This document shows positions 630 to 8,229 of a stretch of DNA of 12,363 bases, one piece after another (within the stretch, counting starts at the first letter, position 1; every line of letters begins with the position of its first letter). Location: NCBI GenBank assembly GCA_034933145.1, contig JAYFOA010000068.1, positions 1 to 12,363 on the forward strand, in the 5' to 3' direction. A program made the position numbers and the translations under genes. Under the pieces are notes generated by a model. It searched no databases. It saw only the letters and a list, made by a program, of their open reading frames with translations, and was not told the origin of the DNA. This DNA is from Clostridiaceae bacterium. GTDB lineage: Bacteria; Bacillota; Clostridia; Oscillospirales; Butyricicoccaceae.

Positions 630-1427
630 ATGAAAGTATTTATCAGCGCGGACATCGAGGGCGTTACCAACACGACCATCTGGGAGGAGACCGAAAAGGA
701 CCAGGCGGTCTATGCTGCCGCTGCCCGACAGATGACGGCGGAAGTCAAGGCCGCCTGCGAGGGTGCCATCGCCGCCGGTGCGGATTACATCCTGGTTAAC
801 GACGCCCACGACTATGCCGTCAATCTGGATTTGTCCCAGCTTCCCGAGTGCGCCGAGGTTATCCGCGGCTGGACCGGCAGCCCTTATGCTATGGTGGACG
901 GCATCGACAAGCGCTTTGACGCCGCCATGTTTGTCGGCTATCATTCCGCCGCCGGCCGCTGCGGAAATCCGCTGTCCCATACCTATACCACCAAGACCGT
1001 CTGGGTCAAATTAAATGGTGTCAAATGCAGCGAGTTCCGTCTCTATAGCTGGGCGGCGGCAATGGAAAATGTACCCACCGTCCTGCTTACCGGCGATAAA
1101 ATGTTGTGTGAGGACAGCAAGGACATCCATCCGATGTGCAAGTCCGTCGCCGTTAAGGACGGATTCGGCGGCCTGACCCGTTCCATCAGCCCGTCGCTGG
1201 CCTGCAAAAAAATCCGGGAAAATGCGGAGGCTGCCCTGAAACAGGACCTTTCCAAGGCGCTGTGCACCCTGCCGGAGCATTTTGTGTTTGAGGTATGCTA
1301 CAAGATTCATGAGCATGCCATCGCCCGCTCTTATTATCCCGGTTTCCAGCTGGTAGAAGACAATGTCATCCGCATGGAGACCGACAACTTTATGGACGTG
1401 CTGCGGGCTGTCGTCTTTGTCTTGTAA
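630..1427 (+). CDS. Peptidase M55 family D-aminopeptidase (DppA-like), copy 1
   Basis: 265-aa ORF with a good RBS. The N-terminus MKVFISADIEGV, the ILVNDAHD motif and VGYHSAAG...SHT resemble B. subtilis DppA (MKLYMSVDMEGISG..VLVNDSH..LGYHA). The size is typical for the M55 family. Confidence 0.8.
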   Translation: MKVFISADIEGVTNTTIWEETEKDQAVYAAAARQMTAEVKAACEGAIAAGADYILVNDAHDYAVNLDLSQLPECAEVIRGWTGSPYAMVDGIDKRFDAAMFVGYHSAAGRCGNPLSHTYTTKTVWVKLNGVKCSEFRLYSWAAAMENVPTVLLTGDKMLCEDSKDIHPMCKSVAVKDGFGGLTRSISPSLACKKIRENAEAALKQDLSKALCTLPEHFVFEVCYKIHEHAIARSYYPGFQLVEDNVIRMETDNFMDVLRAVVFVL

Positions 1428-1437
1428 GAGGTGGCGT

Positions 1438-2244
1438 ATGAAAGTCTATATCAGCTGTGACATTGAAGGCATTGCCACCACAACTCGCTGGGAGCAGACC
1501 CATACCGTCACGGAAAATGCCAAGGCCGCGCCCTATGCCCGCCAGATGACCGAGGAGGTCAATGCCGCCTGCGAGGGCGCCATCGCCGCCGGCGCGGATT
1601 ATATTTTGGTCAAGGACGCTCATGGATCCGGCACCAACATAGACATCTCCCGCTTTCCCGAATGCGTGGAAGTCATCCGCAGCGGATCGGGCAGCCCGTT
1701 TTCCATGGCGGATGGCGTCCAGACCGCCGATTTTGACGCGGCCATGTTCGTCGGCTATCACTCCGCCGCCGGCCGCTGCGGCAACCCGTTGTCCCATACC
1801 TTTACCACCAAGACCGTCTGGGTCAAATTGAACGGCGTAAAGTGCAGCGAATTCCGCCTTTTCAGCTGGGTGGCCGCCCTTTGCGGCGTGCCCACCGTTC
1901 TGCTGTCCGGCGACCGGATGCTGTGTGAGGACAGCCGAGATTTGCATCCGAAACTTCTTACCGTGCCGGTCAAAGACGGGCTTGGCGGCATGACCCGCTC
2001 GCTCCACCCTGTTCTGGCCTGCCGCCGGATCAAAGATGCCGCTGAGCGTGCGCTGCGGCAGGATCTCTCGGACGCGCTGTGCACCATGCCGGAGCATTTT
2101 GTGTTTGAAATCTGTTATAAAGAGCACCGGGATGCGGTGGCCCGGTCCTTCTTCCCGGGTTTTTCCCTTGTGGAGGACAATGTCATCCGTATGGAAACCG
2201 ACGCTTATTGGGAGGTACTCCGTAGCATCCGGTACATTCTCTGA
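1438..2244 (+). CDS. Peptidase M55 family D-aminopeptidase (DppA-like), copy 2 (tandem paralog)
   Basis: The ORF track shows 1363..2244. The ATG at 1438 (MKVYISCDIEGI) aligns with the copy-1 start and has RBS AGAGGTGG 3 nt after the copy-1 stop. The protein is about 60-65% identical to copy 1, with identical blocks AACEGAIAAGADYILV, AAMFVGYHSAAGRCGNPLSHT and TTKTVWVKLNGVKCSEFRL. Confidence 0.8.
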   Translation: MKVYISCDIEGIATTTRWEQTHTVTENAKAAPYARQMTEEVNAACEGAIAAGADYILVKDAHGSGTNIDISRFPECVEVIRSGSGSPFSMADGVQTADFDAAMFVGYHSAAGRCGNPLSHTFTTKTVWVKLNGVKCSEFRLFSWVAALCGVPTVLLSGDRMLCEDSRDLHPKLLTVPVKDGLGGMTRSLHPVLACRRIKDAAERALRQDLSDALCTMPEHFVFEICYKEHRDAVARSFFPGFSLVEDNVIRMETDAYWEVLRSIRYIL

Positions 2245-2679: not shown

Positions 2680-4095
2680 TCATTCCGCTGCTTCCGCCGC
2701 CGGCTTTTCCGTCTGCGGCAGCTCCGCCGTTTCGGATGCCGCGGCCGGCTTTGCCAGATATTCCGGCAGCTGCATTCCTGCCATGTTGAACAGCTCCGCC
2801 ATCGGCGGAATGGATTTCATCATCCCGGACAAAAAGTTTGCCGTAGCGGGTGTGCCGTCCTTTCCGCCCATTCCGTCCCAAACCGTGACCTTGTCGATCT
2901 TGATATTCTTGATGGCCTCCACCTGTACCTTGATCAGGTCTTCCAGCTTGTCGGCCACCATCAGCCGGATTGCATCGTCTGCCTTTCCGCCCGCCGCCCG
3001 AACGATCTCCGCAAGACCGGCGGCCTGTTTGGTCAGGATTTCCTGCATGCCGCGGCCTTCCGCCTCCATTTTGGCGAAAATCGCGTCGGCCTCGCCGCGC
3101 GCCCTACGGCGCAGCTGCTCCGCGTCGGCTTCGGCGGCAATTTCCACCTTGCGTTTTTCGATCTCGGCCTTAACGATGACATCGGCCTCCTGCGTGGCCC
3201 TCTCCTTGTCGGCACGCACCAGTTCGGCAGCCTTTTCGGCAGAATACGCCTCTTCCAGCGCCTTTGCTGCCATGATCTTTTCGGCAGAGACTGCGCGGCG
3301 GTTGGCATCGGCTTCCCGTTCACGGCGGGTCGCATCCGAATCGGCGACCTGCGCCTTCGCATTGTTTTCACCCTGAATGGCCTCGGAGTTTGCTTTCGAA
3401 ACCTGAATTCTCTGCTCACTATTGGCGTTTGCTTCGCCGATGGCGCCTTCACGATCGGCCTCGGCCACCGATTTCTTGGCATCATTGATGGCCTTCGCGG
3501 CGGCCTCTTTGCCGAGGGCCGTGATGTACCCCGACTCATCGCTGATGTCGGTCACGTTTACGTTGATCAGGCGCAGACCGATCTTTTTCAGTTCGGTCTC
3601 TACGTTGCCGGATACGGCTTCCAGAAACTTATCCCGGTCGGTATTGATCTCCTCGATGTCCATGGTGGCAATAATCAGGCGCAGCTGACCGAAAATGATA
3701 TCCTTTGCCAGCTCCTGAATCTCGGTGAGTTTCAATCCGAGCAGGCGCTCTGCCGCATTCTGCATGACACCGGCCTCGGTGGAAATACCCACGGTAAAAC
3801 GGGAAGGAACATCGATGCGGATATTCTGCCGGGACAGCGCATTGGTCAGATCGACGCTGATGGACAGCGGTGTGAGATCCAGATATTCAAAGGACTGGAA
3901 AATCGGCCAGATGAATGCTGCGCCGCCGTGAATGCAGCGGGCCGAGCGGGAAGTCCCGTCCGGGTTGTTGCCGACCTTACCATATATGACCATAATTTTG
4001 TCGGACGGGCATTTGCGATACCGGGAAAGGATCACGATGATGGTAGTGATAAACAGCACGGCCACCACAAGAAGCAAAATGAGCAAACTATCCAT
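2680..4095 (-). CDS. floT: Flotillin (SPFH/band-7 domain; FloT/YuaG-like)
   Basis: 471-aa protein with an N-terminal TM segment (LLILLLVVAVLFITTIIVIL) and an SPFH domain. It has a long Ala/Glu-rich 'EA-repeat' coiled-coil region and a C-terminal VWDGMGG segment. Overall it is collinear with B. subtilis FloT. Its start overlaps the nfeD stop (ATGGATAG), and the RBS GGAGGT lies inside nfeD. Confidence 0.85.
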   Translation of the reverse strand: MDSLLILLLVVAVLFITTIIVILSRYRKCPSDKIMVIYGKVGNNPDGTSRSARCIHGGAAFIWPIFQSFEYLDLTPLSISVDLTNALSRQNIRIDVPSRFTVGISTEAGVMQNAAERLLGLKLTEIQELAKDIIFGQLRLIIATMDIEEINTDRDKFLEAVSGNVETELKKIGLRLINVNVTDISDESGYITALGKEAAAKAINDAKKSVAEADREGAIGEANANSEQRIQVSKANSEAIQGENNAKAQVADSDATRREREADANRRAVSAEKIMAAKALEEAYSAEKAAELVRADKERATQEADVIVKAEIEKRKVEIAAEADAEQLRRRARGEADAIFAKMEAEGRGMQEILTKQAAGLAEIVRAAGGKADDAIRLMVADKLEDLIKVQVEAIKNIKIDKVTVWDGMGGKDGTPATANFLSGMMKSIPPMAELFNMAGMQLPEYLAKPAAASETAELPQTEKPAAEAAE

Positions 4096-4792
4096 TTTTT
4101 ACCTCCGTCTCTTGTTTTTTAAGTTGTGTTTCCGCAGGAATGACGATCAGGGTATCCTCATCCTCCATCCCTACCACCCGTACGAACTCGCCGGGTTTTA
4201 AATCGCGGTCTGAGGTTGTCACCGCACCGCATTCGGAAAAGCGGCCCTGAAAGGTCAGCGTGACCTTTCCCTCACTTTTTCCGCCGGCCGGAATCCGGAT
4301 ATACACCTTCGCCGTCTTTCCGACCGCATTGCTCAGCAGCTGATTGCCTGCGGACTGAAGCCTGGTTGCTTCCCGGAACAGCAGGGCGATCCCGTACAAT
4401 GCCGCCGTCCCCGCAGATATTGCCAGCGTGACGGTCAGTATGGGCGGAAGACCCGCACCGTCCAGCACAATGCCGGTCCATCCGCCAACCGATAGAAATG
4501 CGACGATCCCGCGGATGCTGAACAGGGCAAGCCCGTCTCCGCCGTCTGCCGTCCCGTCATCAGGTGCATCCATTTCCTCTGTCCCATCGGGTCCGCCGGC
4601 GGCATCGATTCCATCGATCCCGTCGGGGCCGTCGCCAATACCGTCGACTGATGTCGAGTCGCCGGTATCCGTATCATTCCCCAGTCCGATGATGACCAGT
4701 ACCGTCTGAATGACCAGCACCAGCGTTGCGGGCAGCGCGGCAAAAGCAAAAATTCTCTGTAGACTTGAGAGCGCTTCCCACCATTCCCGCAT
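4088..4792 (-). CDS. NfeD-family membrane protein (YuaF-like), partner of flotillin
   Basis: 234-aa protein with N-terminal and central hydrophobic helices and a C-terminal beta-rich OB-fold-like region (KVYIRIPAGGKSEGKVTLTFQGRFSECGAVTTSDRDLKPGEFVRVVGMEDEDTLIV). It lies immediately upstream of flotillin and is translationally coupled to it (8-nt overlap). This is the canonical nfeD-floT (yuaF-yuaG) arrangement. RBS AAAGGGGGG is upstream. Confidence 0.8.
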   Translation of the reverse strand: MREWWEALSSLQRIFAFAALPATLVLVIQTVLVIIGLGNDTDTGDSTSVDGIGDGPDGIDGIDAAGGPDGTEEMDAPDDGTADGGDGLALFSIRGIVAFLSVGGWTGIVLDGAGLPPILTVTLAISAGTAALYGIALLFREATRLQSAGNQLLSNAVGKTAKVYIRIPAGGKSEGKVTLTFQGRFSECGAVTTSDRDLKPGEFVRVVGMEDEDTLIVIPAETQLKKQETEVKNG

Positions 4793-5537: not shown

Positions 5538-6362
5538 CTAGCAGTTGCCTGTATATACATATCGCAGATGCTTCGCCGCGATGTCCCGCAGCCGATAGAT
5601 TGTCTGTACCGGCGTCGGACTGCGGTCGCATAACCGATACTGGGGGAAAAATCGGCTGATATGCAGGGGAATGGACATATCCACCGAGGCAATCCATGCG
5701 CCGATCGCCTCCATATCCTCATCCGTATCATTTTCTCCCGGTATAACCAGCGTCGTCACCTCCACATGGCATCGCGGTGCGGAAAGGGCAATGGTGCGCC
5801 GGACGCTTTCAAAATCCCCTCCCACAAAATCATAAAACGTCTGCGAAAAGCCCTTTAGATCCACGTTCATTGCATCGATGTGCGGCAGCAGTTCCTCCAG
5901 CGGCCCTTCGCATACCGTCCCGTTGGTGATGAGGACGTTTTTCATCCCGGCGGCATGGATCAGCTCTGCACAGTCACGAACGTATTCGTATCCCACCAGC
6001 GGCTCATTATAGGTAAAGGCCAATCCGATATTTCCGCGGCTCTGCAGCGCGCAGGCCCGCGCGACCAACTCTTCCGCCGGGAAAAAGACCGTCTCCGCCT
6101 CCGCGCCCGCCATGGAAATGTCGCTGTTCTGGCAGAAGGGGCAGCGCAGGTTGCAGCCGTAGCTGCCGACGGACAGAAGATAGCTTCCGGGATAAAACCG
6201 TGCCAGCGGCTTTTTCTCAACGGGGTCGAGAGCCATCGAGGTCAGCTTTCCATAATTATCGCAGACAACCCGGCCGCCGACGTTTTTCCGCGCGCGGCAG
6301 AGGCCGGTCTGTCCTTCCTCCAGCGCGCAGTGGTGAAAACAAACAGGGCAGATCGCTCTCAT
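5538..6362 (-). CDS. AmmeMemoRadiSam-system radical SAM enzyme (pyruvate formate-lyase activase-like)
   Basis: 274-aa protein. The N-terminus MRAICPVCFHHCALEEGQTGLCRARKN...DPVEKKPLARFYPGSYLLSVGSYGCNLRCPFCQNSDIS carries the CxxxCxxC radical-SAM cluster motif in the family-specific GCNLRCxFCQN context. Its start overlaps the stop of the upstream Memo-AMMECR1 gene (ATGA). Confidence 0.85.
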   Translation of the reverse strand: MRAICPVCFHHCALEEGQTGLCRARKNVGGRVVCDNYGKLTSMALDPVEKKPLARFYPGSYLLSVGSYGCNLRCPFCQNSDISMAGAEAETVFFPAEELVARACALQSRGNIGLAFTYNEPLVGYEYVRDCAELIHAAGMKNVLITNGTVCEGPLEELLPHIDAMNVDLKGFSQTFYDFVGGDFESVRRTIALSAPRCHVEVTTLVIPGENDTDEDMEAIGAWIASVDMSIPLHISRFFPQYRLCDRSPTPVQTIYRLRDIAAKHLRYVYTGNC

Positions 6363-7744
6363 AAATGCCGCACCGCCTGAAAACGGGAAAGTTCTACATC
6401 CTCCCGCAGGCCGATGCCGGCCTTCTGCCTGCAGATGGCAATCTGTTCCTCCACGGTATCGACGCCCTCCAAATCGGGCAGCAGTAGCCCCCGGCGTGTA
6501 CCGCGAGACACGATGACGCCGTACTTTTTCGGGTCAAGCTCGGTTTCTGAGGAAACCGGCTCCGGCGCGGTCAGCACGTCAACGCTATAAACGAGTTTCG
6601 GCAGTTCCGCCGCCGTCACGGGCGGAAACCGGGGATCCTCCGTCCCGGCGGAGACGGCATTGCGCAGGATCTCTTTTGCCAGGATAGACTCCGTCGGTGC
6701 AAACGTACCGATGCAGCCGCGCAGCAGGCCGTCTTTTTTCAATGAAACAAAGGCTCCGGCTCTTTGTGTCAGCAGTTCCGGCGGCAGCTGATCGGGCATC
6801 TCGGCCCGTTTCCCCGTGCGGACATAGGTTTCCAACGACAGCCGCGCCAGTCGGACGTAGGGATCTTCCTTCGCCTTGCTGCGCGCCAGCATCGCTGCTT
6901 CCTCCGCTTCCAGCGCCGCGCCGAACTGCCTTCTGGCATCCTCACCCGCCGGCAGAAAGACCGCCGTGGCATAGCCGACGCCGAAGGGGCCTTCATAGGA
7001 CAGCAGCTCGCTTTTTACCTTTTTTCCGTCCATCGTGCCAGCCATAATCTGAAAGGCACGCAAGCCACATTCGCCCGCTGCATCGCAAAATGCAGGGGAA
7101 AGGTGCAGCAGCGCGCCGAAATCTCCGGCCGCAAGTGCCTCTGTCACGAGCCGATCGAAGACCGGCCCTTCGGGCGCGAAACCGTAGGGCCCATCCTCCG
7201 CCAGCCGATGGGAAAGATCGCCGCTGGCGATGATCGCCGTCCTGCGGGAAAGCTTCTCCGACACCTCCGCGATGCATTTCCCCAATGCATAATGAGTTAC
7301 CGGCGGCAGGCCGGACAGACCAATACGCACAATCCGGCAGGTAAGTCCCGTTTCGCCCAGAAAGCGCAGAGGGATCACCGAAGCGTGGTCCAGCGAGGCA
7401 TTCCGTTCCCCCTGGGTGCCGGCGGGTACATCCTTTTCCGCACACAGCCGAGACAGCGCCTGCGTAAACTCCGCGTCGTAGGACGCCTCCACCCGCACGC
7501 CCGGAACCCCAAACTGCGAAAGATCGCCCCATGCCCTCACGCCCGGGGAAATGTGGAACCAGTCCGCATACATCACCGCATGGGGGCTGAGCAGCACAAC
7601 CGTATCCGGCCGAAGCTCCGCCAAGCGCATCATCGCTGTGCGATAGGCGTCGATGGTTTTCTGAATTTTCTTTTCCTCTCCCCGGCCGACTTCCGGCAGG
7701 ATAAGCGGCGGATGGGGCACCGCAATCGCGCCCAGAACAGACAT
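6359..7744 (-). CDS. Fusion protein: N-terminal Memo/LigB-type (class III extradiol dioxygenase-like) domain + C-terminal AMMECR1 domain
   Basis: 461-aa protein. The N-terminal ~270 aa (MSVLGAIAVPHPPLILPEV..., LLSPHAVMYADW, IIASGDLSH) resemble the Memo/LigB superfamily (compare Memo APHAGYTY and SSDFCH). The C-terminal ~190 aa carry the AMMECR1 hallmark LRGCIG (…AFVSLKKDGLLRGCIGTFAPT…). Strong RBS AAGGGAGGA. Coupled to the radical SAM gene by a 4-nt overlap. Confidence 0.85.
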   Translation of the reverse strand: MSVLGAIAVPHPPLILPEVGRGEEKKIQKTIDAYRTAMMRLAELRPDTVVLLSPHAVMYADWFHISPGVRAWGDLSQFGVPGVRVEASYDAEFTQALSRLCAEKDVPAGTQGERNASLDHASVIPLRFLGETGLTCRIVRIGLSGLPPVTHYALGKCIAEVSEKLSRRTAIIASGDLSHRLAEDGPYGFAPEGPVFDRLVTEALAAGDFGALLHLSPAFCDAAGECGLRAFQIMAGTMDGKKVKSELLSYEGPFGVGYATAVFLPAGEDARRQFGAALEAEEAAMLARSKAKEDPYVRLARLSLETYVRTGKRAEMPDQLPPELLTQRAGAFVSLKKDGLLRGCIGTFAPTESILAKEILRNAVSAGTEDPRFPPVTAAELPKLVYSVDVLTAPEPVSSETELDPKKYGVIVSRGTRRGLLLPDLEGVDTVEEQIAICRQKAGIGLREDVELSRFQAVRHL

Positions 7745-7758
7745 GTGAGTCCTCCCTT

Positions 7759-8229
7759 TCAGTCAATCAGTTCGGTCAGTGTTGCATGTGCGTAGGCGAT
7801 CAACTGCTCCGGTGGCAGAATAAGCTGCAAGCCGCGCTGTCCGGCGCTGACCGCGATTTCAGCCCACAGTGCGGCGGTTTCGTCCATATAGGTCGGCAAT
7901 TTTTTCTTCATCCCGATGGGCGAGCAGCCGCCGCGAAGATAGCCGGTCAACGGAAGCAGTTCTTTCAGATGAATCAGCTCCACCTTCTTGTTGCCCGAAG
8001 CCGCGGCCGCACGCCGAAGATCGAGTTCTTCCGCCACCGGAATACAAAAAACCAGCGGCCCGGTTTTATCCCCGCGGGCGACCAGCGTCTTAAACACCTG
8101 CTCCGGCGGCATCCCGATCGCCGCCGCCGCGTGAACACCGGACAAGTCGTTTTCATCATATGCATATTCCGCCGTGCGGTAAGTGATCTTTTCCGCATCC
8201 AGCAGGCGCATGGCATTGGTTCTGACCAT
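7759..8229 (-). CDS. ybaK: YbaK/ProX-family aminoacyl-tRNA deacylase (Cys-tRNA(Pro) deacylase-like)
   Basis: 157-aa protein starting at MVRTNAMRLLDAEKI, with RBS AGAGGTGA upstream. The block KKVELIHLKELLPLTGYLRGGCSPIGMKKKLPTYMDETAA aligns with E. coli YbaK [39 protein letters not shown]. The ORF-track N-terminal extension to 8430 has no RBS or homology. The stop lies 14 nt before the next gene's start. Confidence 0.85.
   Translation of the reverse strand: MVRTNAMRLLDAEKITYRTAEYAYDENDLSGVHAAAAIGMPPEQVFKTLVARGDKTGPLVFCIPVAEELDLRRAAAASGNKKVELIHLKELLPLTGYLRGGCSPIGMKKKLPTYMDETAALWAEIAVSAGQRGLQLILPPEQLIAYAHATLTELID

What the first reader, a model, noticed from the sequence alone, without database searches (positions are those of the whole stretch)
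6359..7744. Single-polypeptide fusion of the normally separate 'B' (Memo-like) and 'A' (AMMECR1) components
In the described family the AMMECR1 protein (~190 aa) and the Memo-like protein (~270 aa) are separate genes. Here one 1386-nt ORF encodes both domains in the order Memo-like then AMMECR1, with no internal stop and a sensible linker (…ARSKAKEDPYVRLARLSLETYV…). A natural fusion argues the two proteins form a physical complex. It also shows which termini are adjacent, which helps mechanistic and structural work.
Basis: partly seen in the sequence, partly recalled or inferred. Interest (0 to 1): 0.6.

Follow-up and report, generated by a model that had tools for sequence, protein, structure and literature searches.

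The report
Known LigB-like–AMMECR1 fusion protein
The 461-residue protein is a real single-chain fusion of a metal-binding LigB/Memo-superfamily domain and an AMMECR1 domain, next to its radical SAM partner, but this architecture is widespread in anaerobic bacteria, already annotated and reported in print since 2007, so it is ordinary.

Summary
The ORF exists as described, on the minus strand: 6359..7744, 461 aa, no internal stop. AMMECR1 is confirmed at aa 297-458 (Pfam E 1.4e-45; TIGR04335 above its cutoff). The N-terminal half is not a Pfam Memo member. It scores as LigB (PF02900, 131 bits). Its closest structures are TK2203 and the aminophenol/HPA dioxygenases; MEMO1 ranks last. Its conserved residues, however, follow the Memo pattern: H11, H55, D176, H179 and C226. 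E225, the dioxygenase-type ligand, is present here but variable across the family.

A radical SAM gene (TIGR04337) follows with a 4-nt overlap. The fusion is not a frameshift artefact. The identical protein occurs on two independent assemblies. The 120 closest database clusters listed and about 30 genome loci carry the same single ORF followed by the radical SAM gene. NCBI names these proteins "AmmeMemoRadiSam system protein A" and JGI "protein A/protein B". Balaji and Aravind (2007) already reported AMMECR1-dioxygenase gene fusions.

Verdict: real, correctly read, already known. The biochemical function of the system remains unknown.

The parts
6359..7744 (-). Fusion gene (461 aa plus stop codon): LigB-like/Memo-superfamily domain followed by an AMMECR1 domain
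   Evidence: ORF list and translation; Pfam and NCBIfam; AF2 model with mean pLDDT 91.9 and pTM 0.81
6968..7729 (-). N-terminal metal-binding domain (aa 6-259). It is a Pfam LigB member. Key residues are H11, H55, D119-H120, D176, H179, E225 and C226.
6860..6958 (-). Interdomain linker (aa 263-295), mostly predicted as a helix (aa 274-291) and variable in sequence between homologues
   Evidence: DSSP on the AF2 model, block pLDDT 86-89; alignment of loci proteins
6371..6856 (-). AMMECR1 domain (aa 297-458) with invariant R342-G-C344-I-G346 and D370-P-R-F373 motifs
   Evidence: PF01871 E 1.4e-45. TIGR04335 at 129.8 bits, cutoff 99. PDB PH0010 1vaj E 1.2e-21. Invariant columns in A1. The motifs were defined in PMC2034487.
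5538..6362 (-). Partner radical SAM gene (274 aa, AmmeMemoRadiSam radical SAM enzyme). Its ATG overlaps the fusion's TGA stop (ATGA). It has CX3CX2C at C70/C74/C77 and an invariant N-terminal CX2CX3CX9C motif.
   Evidence: TIGR04337 at 257.3 bits, cutoff 220; sequence of the overlap; the gene follows the fusion in 32 of 33 Bacillota loci; cysteine conservation
7751..7758 (-). Ribosome-binding site AAGGGAGG, 6 nt upstream of the fusion ATG and 14 nt after the stop of the upstream ybaK-like gene
   Evidence: Sequence read directly

Best explanation
The gene encodes the fused 'B-like + A' subunit of a two-gene AmmeMemoRadiSam-type system in an anaerobic Bacillota bacterium. It is co-transcribed and translationally coupled with its radical SAM partner.

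Shown:
- The N-terminal domain has the class III extradiol-dioxygenase (PCAD/LigB) fold and is a Pfam LigB member.
- The residues its family conserves are the MEMO1-type set: H11 = H49, H55 = H81, D176 = D189, H179 = H192, C226 = C244.
- The C-terminal domain is a canonical AMMECR1 with the invariant RGCIG cysteine (C344) and the DPRF motif.
- The fusion gene and the radical SAM gene are the only genes conserved together across loci.

Inferred:
- The N-domain takes the place of the stand-alone Memo protein (protein B). It binds Fe(II) or another metal through His-His-Cys, with Glu225 as an optional extra ligand.
- It does not act as an O2-dependent ring-cleaving dioxygenase, because the system lives in strict anaerobes next to an O2-labile radical SAM enzyme.

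Most likely mechanism (inference, roughly 40%): the PflA-like radical SAM enzyme cleaves SAM and abstracts a hydrogen at the AMMECR1 cleft. The target would be either the RGCIG motif itself or a substrate held there, possibly a nucleotide or RNA base as Aravind's group proposed. The adjacent metal domain would then carry out a non-oxidative follow-up step. The substrate is unknown.
For: - Domain identities.
- Conserved H-H-D-H-x-C signature in 150 representatives at 50% identity: H11 140/141, H55 141/142, D176 144/150, H179 147/150, C226 140/142, E225 only 101/142.
- hhalign to MEMO1 plus a bacterial Memo pairs D176/H179/C226 with D189/H192/C244. MEMO1 binds iron through H49/H81/C244 (PMC11081632).
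- A true Memo(PF01875)-AMMECR1 fusion with the same domain order exists (L034). The LigB-like domain also occurs unfused between the radical SAM and AMMECR1 genes in Dehalococcoides (L043). The two domain types therefore occupy the same slot.
- The radical SAM gene follows directly in 32 of 33 loci, and nothing else is conserved. The start and stop codons overlap by 4 nt.
- After TIGR04337, the best NCBIfam hits of the radical SAM enzyme are glycyl-radical activases such as PflA, YjjW and NrdG.
- Radical SAM-AMMECR1 fusions exist in L033, L039 and L067.
- AMMECR1 is the strongest anaerobe-predicting Pfam family, found in 3.4% of aerobes and 50.7% of anaerobes (PMC13386939).
- pTM 0.81 for the whole two-domain model suggests a defined domain packing.
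Against: - No experiment on any member of this system was found in the searchable literature. Every mechanistic step is inference.
- This particular protein retains the complete dioxygenase-type set H11/H55/E225 plus H179, so oxygen chemistry cannot be excluded from sequence alone.
- By sequence and fold the N-domain is closer to catalytic dioxygenases than to Memo.
- Balaji and Aravind described the radical SAM enzyme as MiaB-related rather than activase-like.
Confidence: 0.85

Rival explanations
1. The single ORF is an artefact: a sequencing or assembly frameshift, or a lost stop codon, has joined two adjacent genes for a Memo/LigB-like protein and an AMMECR1 protein.
For: Unfused versions exist (L043: a 308-aa LigB-like gene followed 15 nt later by a 167-aa AMMECR1 gene). 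Three Bacillota loci (L009, L032, L080) show the gene split in two.
Against: The identical 461-aa protein occurs on two independent assemblies. All 120 best clusters are full-length. 30 of 33 Bacillota loci have one ORF of 459-467 aa. 99 of 150 family representatives carry AMMECR1. The linker is modelled as a confident helix.
Confidence: 0.01
2. The N-terminal domain is a working O2-dependent class III extradiol dioxygenase, like HpaD, AmnB or LigB. It would open an aromatic ring, and AMMECR1 and the radical SAM enzyme would process the same aromatic metabolite.
Against: The carboxylate ligand position (E225) is replaced by Q, V, H, T or Y in about 29% of family representatives, whereas C226 is near-invariant. 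The hosts are strict anaerobes (Clostridia, Dehalococcoidia). AMMECR1 is strongly anaerobe-associated. The obligate partner is an oxygen-labile radical SAM enzyme. No aromatic-catabolism genes are conserved nearby. MEMO1, which has the same His-His-Cys site, shows no dioxygenase activity (PMC11081632).
Confidence: 0.07
3. The N-terminal domain is simply a fast-evolving orthologue of AmmeMemoRadiSam protein B (Memo family) that Pfam's models misassign to LigB. On this reading the protein is a plain B-A fusion, exactly.
For: TIGR04336 scores 25.5 bits against a cutoff of 26. 7 of 120 homologues carry a precomputed PF01875 hit. The residue signature is Memo-type. The domain holds the same position as true Memo in L034.
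Confidence: 0.2

Closest known systems
AmmeMemoRadiSam system (NCBIfam TIGR04335 protein A / TIGR04336 protein B / TIGR04337 radical SAM enzyme)
   Same: The AMMECR1 half passes TIGR04335 and the downstream gene passes TIGR04337. Close homologues are named 'AmmeMemoRadiSam system protein A' by NCBI and 'protein A/protein B' by JGI.
   Different: This locus has two genes rather than three. The B slot is a fused LigB-family domain that falls just below the TIGR04336 cutoff. The radical SAM enzyme is short, covering positions 11-285 of a 349-position model.
MEMO1 / Memo family (PF01875; PDB 3BCZ, 7KQ8)
   Different: There is no PF01875 hit and identity is about 11-12%. The domain lacks Memo's N-terminal extension. 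It has an additional Glu immediately before the Cys (E225-C226).
Class III extradiol dioxygenases (PF02900 LigB: LigB 1B4U, HpaD 8IQ8, aminophenol dioxygenase 3VSG) and the uncharacterised archaeal TK2203 (5HEE)
   Different: It is fused to AMMECR1, coupled to a radical SAM enzyme and found in anaerobes. Across the family the Glu is variable and a Cys absent from these enzymes is near-invariant.
AMMECR1 family (PF01871; PH0010 1VAJ, MM0484 1ZQ7; human AMMECR1)
   Same: The full domain is present with the RGChG and DxRa motifs.
   Different: It forms the C-terminal half of a larger protein. Archaeal and eukaryotic members stand alone.
AMMECR1-dioxygenase gene fusions noted by Balaji and Aravind, Nucleic Acids Res 2007 (PMC2034487). 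The PCAD-Memo superfamily survey by Burroughs et al., J Biol Chem 2019, was not readable here.
   Same: The same neighbourhood (radical SAM enzyme plus ring-opening dioxygenase plus AMMECR1) and the same kind of fusion are described.
   Different: None that I could establish. The 2019 paper may already name this subfamily, but I could not read it.

Membership tests
AmmeMemoRadiSam protein A / AMMECR1 (TIGR04335, PF01871) | Score above the curated cutoff | tested here: met
   TIGR04335 129.8 bits against cutoff 99; PF01871 155.2 bits against cutoff 25
AmmeMemoRadiSam protein A / AMMECR1 (TIGR04335, PF01871) | Conserved RGChG cysteine motif and DxRa motif (Balaji and Aravind 2007) | tested here: met
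   R342-G343-C344-I345-G346 and D370-P371-R372-F373. R342, G343, C344, G346, D370, R372 and F373 are invariant in 44 homologues; I345 and P371 are at least 90% conserved.
AmmeMemoRadiSam protein A / AMMECR1 (TIGR04335, PF01871) | Genomic association with the TIGR04337 radical SAM enzyme | tested here: met
   The adjacent gene scores 257.3 bits against cutoff 220 with a 4-nt overlap. Adjacency holds in 32 of 33 Bacillota loci.
AmmeMemoRadiSam protein B / Memo (TIGR04336, PF01875) | Score above the curated cutoff | tested here: not met
   TIGR04336 25.5 bits against cutoff 26. No PF01875 hit at E<=0.01. No Memo chain in the PDB profile search at E<=1.
AmmeMemoRadiSam protein B / Memo (TIGR04336, PF01875) | His-His-Cys metal site (MEMO1 H49/H81/C244) with nearby Asp and His (D189/H192) | tested here: met
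   H11, H55, D176, H179 and C226 are present and 96-99% conserved. hhalign pairs D176/H179/C226 with D189/H192/C244. H11 and H55 are assigned through CnbCb H13/H62, which PMC11081632 equates with MEMO1 H49/H81. Metal binding itself was not tested.
Class III extradiol dioxygenase (PF02900 LigB) | Score above the curated cutoff and matching fold | tested here: met
Class III extradiol dioxygenase (PF02900 LigB) | 2-His-1-carboxylate iron triad plus catalytic His, conserved | tested here: inconclusive
   The set is present in this protein (H11, H55, E225, H179). The Glu is conserved in only 101 of 142 family representatives.
Class III extradiol dioxygenase (PF02900 LigB) | O2-dependent aromatic ring cleavage | not testable with these tools
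   Needs an enzyme assay. The context (anaerobes, radical SAM partner) argues against it.
Glycyl-radical enzyme activases (PflA TIGR02493 and relatives), for the partner gene | Score above the curated cutoff | tested here: not met
   PflA 53.4 bits against cutoff 231.75. The gene is related to the activases but is not a member.

The most novel reading that the evidence does not exclude
The N-terminal domain may represent a distinct lineage with a dioxygenase (PCAD) fold and sequence but a Memo-type His-His-Cys site preceded by an optional Glu (the 'ECG' dyad). This lineage would have displaced canonical Memo in Bacillota and some Chloroflexota AmmeMemoRadiSam systems. Three fusion types exist: LigB-like-AMMECR1, Memo-AMMECR1 and radical SAM-AMMECR1, always with AMMECR1 C-terminal. 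Together they would point to a ternary complex centred on the AMMECR1 cleft, in which a PflA-like radical SAM enzyme installs or uses a radical at the RGCIG motif. If so, this compact two-protein version would be the simplest system in which to discover the unknown biochemical function shared by the human disease-linked proteins MEMO1 and AMMECR1.
Probability: 0.2. Interest if true: 0.45.

Novelty: already known. Interest (0 to 1): 0.15.

Why it matters
As a discovery it matters little. The fusion is in the databases by the hundreds at least, carries standard annotation, and was reported in 2007. Its residual value is practical. MEMO1 and AMMECR1 are conserved, disease-linked proteins whose biochemistry remains unknown. 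The fused two-gene bacterial form supports their physical association. It fixes the domain order, with AMMECR1 always C-terminal. It also offers a simple pair of proteins for anaerobic reconstitution. One point is useful for anyone annotating or modelling these proteins: Pfam files the 'B' half under LigB, yet it conserves the Memo-type His-His-Cys residues rather than the dioxygenase glutamate.

Tried and rejected
- **Frameshift artefact:** rejected.
- **Conserved partners beyond the two genes:** BLAST of the window's neighbours (two DppA paralogues, SPFH, the 234-aa membrane protein, DUF1836, YbaK, the HTH protein, GAPDH) against all 80 loci gave no hits. Clustering of flank ORFs found only the fusion, the radical SAM gene and their antisense shadow ORFs. 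The YbaK adjacency therefore gives no evidence of a tRNA link.
- **Stand-alone Memo gene in the window:** none found.
- **Experimental function in the literature:** searches for 'AmmeMemoRadiSam', 'AMMECR1' with radical SAM/Memo/LigB/MEMO1, and 'TK2203' found no functional study.
- **Burroughs et al. 2019:** neither the DOI nor PMC6664185 is held. I could not check whether this subfamily is already named there.
- **Foldseek against afdb50:** not available.
- **Pfam scan of all 150 representatives:** I used my own HMMs instead.
- **MAFFT alignment of Memo (L034) with the LigB-like proteins:** it misaligned the first His motif. I relied on hhalign and phmmer alignments instead.

Full report
**Observation.** The window has an ORF at 6359..7744 on the minus strand. 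It has an ATG start, is 461 aa long and has no internal stop. A strong ribosome-binding site, AAGGGAGG, lies 6 nt upstream. The quoted linker sequence is at aa 287-308. Pfam finds LigB (PF02900) at aa 6-259 (131 bits, E 4.4e-38) and AMMECR1 (PF01871) at aa 297-458 (155 bits, E 1.4e-45). NCBIfam puts the C-terminal half above the cutoff of TIGR04335, AmmeMemoRadiSam protein A (129.8 against 99). The downstream gene (5538..6362, minus strand) is above the cutoff of TIGR04337, the system's radical SAM enzyme (257.3 against 220). The two genes overlap by 4 nt (ATGA).

**Not an artefact.** The identical protein is called as one gene on two independent assemblies with the same neighbours. All 120 best clusters from the 5.8-billion-protein search are full-length, about 461 aa, and carry PF02900 plus PF01871. 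In a scan of one genome per species, 33 Bacillota loci carry the gene. In 30 of them it is a single ORF of 459-467 aa where complete. In 32 the radical SAM gene follows directly.

**What the N-terminal half is.** It is not a Memo-family member by any curated model:
- There is no PF01875 hit at E<=0.01, and TIGR04336 scores 25.5 bits against a cutoff of 26.
- A profile of 44 homologues searched against PDB sequences finds HpaD (1.3e-17), TK2203, aminophenol dioxygenase subunits, DOPA dioxygenases and MhpB, but no Memo at E<=1.
- The AF2 model is confident (mean pLDDT 91.9, pTM 0.81). Foldseek ranks TK2203 (E 2e-19, TM 0.84) and the catalytic dioxygenases ahead of LigB (2.6e-11) and MEMO1 (5e-9, TM 0.54).
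- phmmer aligns H11, H55 and E225 with the iron ligands H13, H62 and E251 of CnbCb, and H179 with the conserved SH motif of these enzymes, the position of the catalytic His.

**The residue pattern points the other way.** I searched the N-domain against 1.84 billion representatives. It found 2996 relatives at E<=1e-3 and 724 at E<=1e-30. Conservation in the best 150 was as follows:

| Residue | Conserved in |
|---|---|
| H11 | 140/141 |
| H55 | 141/142 |
| D176 | 144/150 |
| H179 | 147/150 |
| C226 | 140/142 |
| E225 | 101/142 (otherwise Q, V, H, D, T, Y) |

The dominant signature is H-H-D-H-x-C in both fused and unfused members. hhalign of this family against MEMO1 plus a bacterial Memo gives 95.9% probability. 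It pairs D176, H179 and C226 with MEMO1 D189, H192 and C244. MEMO1 binds iron through H49, H81 and C244, where C244 occupies the position of the dioxygenase glutamate (PMC11081632). The domain therefore has a dioxygenase-like sequence and fold but conserves the Memo-type site. The Glu-Cys dyad leaves a one-residue ambiguity about the third ligand, which I could not resolve without the model coordinates.

**Context and variants.** Only the fusion and the radical SAM gene are conserved across loci. None of the window's other genes recurs. Related loci show that the same slot is filled in different ways:
- L034 encodes a true Memo (PF01875, 254 bits)-AMMECR1 fusion with the same domain order.
- L043 (Dehalococcoides mccartyi) has a radical SAM gene, then a stand-alone LigB-like gene (308 aa), then a stand-alone AMMECR1 gene (167 aa).
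- L028 has the radical SAM gene followed by the LigB-like-AMMECR1 fusion.
- L033, L039 and L067 encode radical SAM-AMMECR1 fusions.
- Most Dehalococcoidia loci have the radical SAM gene followed by AMMECR1, with no Memo-like gene recognised next to them; only one such locus was scanned with Pfam, the rest by BLAST with the window's N-domain.

AMMECR1 is C-terminal in every fusion. Of the 150 N-domain representatives, 99 carry AMMECR1, 31 are N-domain only, and 20 have tails that look frameshifted. The fused form is therefore the majority.

**Mechanism.** No experimental work on the bacterial system was found. Established facts are these:
- AMMECR1 has a cleft with an invariant Cys (RGChG) and a DxRa motif, proposed as its active site (PMC2034487). 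Both motifs are present here and conserved in all 44 aligned homologues: C344 and the D370/R372/F373 positions are invariant.
- After TIGR04337, the radical SAM enzyme's nearest curated relatives are glycyl-radical activases.
- It also has an invariant N-terminal four-Cys motif.
- AMMECR1 is the strongest anaerobe-predicting Pfam family.

My best inference is as follows. The fusion is a metal-binding, non-oxygenase 'B-like plus A' subunit. The radical SAM enzyme acts at its AMMECR1 cleft, either on the protein itself or on a substrate bound there. The metal domain carries out a follow-up step. This mechanism is inference only.

[quoted passage not shown] NCBI and JGI annotate the homologues as protein A or A/B. 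Burroughs et al. (2019) surveyed the PCAD-Memo superfamily, but that paper was not readable here. The finding is therefore real and largely well read, but already known. The 'Memo-like' label holds at superfamily and active-site level, not at family level.

Noticed in passing
window 5538-6362 (-): The radical SAM partner has the canonical CX3CX2C motif (C70/C74/C77). It also has an N-terminal CX2CX3CX9C motif (C5, C8, C12, C22) that is invariant in all 65 full-length orthologues examined, which suggests an auxiliary Fe-S or zinc site. Bacillota versions are about 279 aa, against about 327-336 aa in Dehalococcoidia. The window protein covers only positions 11-285 of the 349-position TIGR04337 model.
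   Followed up: partly
L034 5665-7077; L033 3579-5360; L039 3254-4888; L067 1241-2926: Other fusion types occur in the same system: a true Memo (PF01875)-AMMECR1 fusion (470 aa) and radical SAM-AMMECR1 fusions (544-593 aa) in Dehalococcoidia/Chloroflexota. AMMECR1 is always the C-terminal domain.
   Followed up: partly
L043 4935-7340: Dehalococcoides mccartyi carries the unfused arrangement: a radical SAM gene (346 aa), then a stand-alone LigB-like protein (308 aa, 37% identical to the window N-domain), then a stand-alone AMMECR1 (167 aa). Gene order is also reversed relative to Bacillota, with the radical SAM gene first.
   Followed up: partly
window 630-1427 and about 1438-2244 (+): Two tandem paralogous D-aminopeptidase (DppA, Peptidase_M55) genes, each with a full-length Pfam match.
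   Followed up: no
window 2680-4792 (-): An SPFH/Band 7 (flotillin-like) gene (471 aa) overlaps the end of an upstream 234-aa predicted membrane protein that has no Pfam hit. The arrangement resembles NfeD-SPFH pairs.
   Followed up: no
window 7759-8229 (-): A YbaK-type Cys-tRNA(Pro) deacylase gene ends 14 nt before the fusion gene and probably shares its transcript. This adjacency is not conserved at any of the other loci examined.
   Followed up: yes
window 6764-7795 (+) and 6993-7766 (-): Long shadow ORFs (343 aa antisense; 257 aa in another frame on the same strand) overlap the fusion gene. Equivalent shadow ORFs recur at homologous loci as a by-product of the high GC content and are not genes.
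   Followed up: partly
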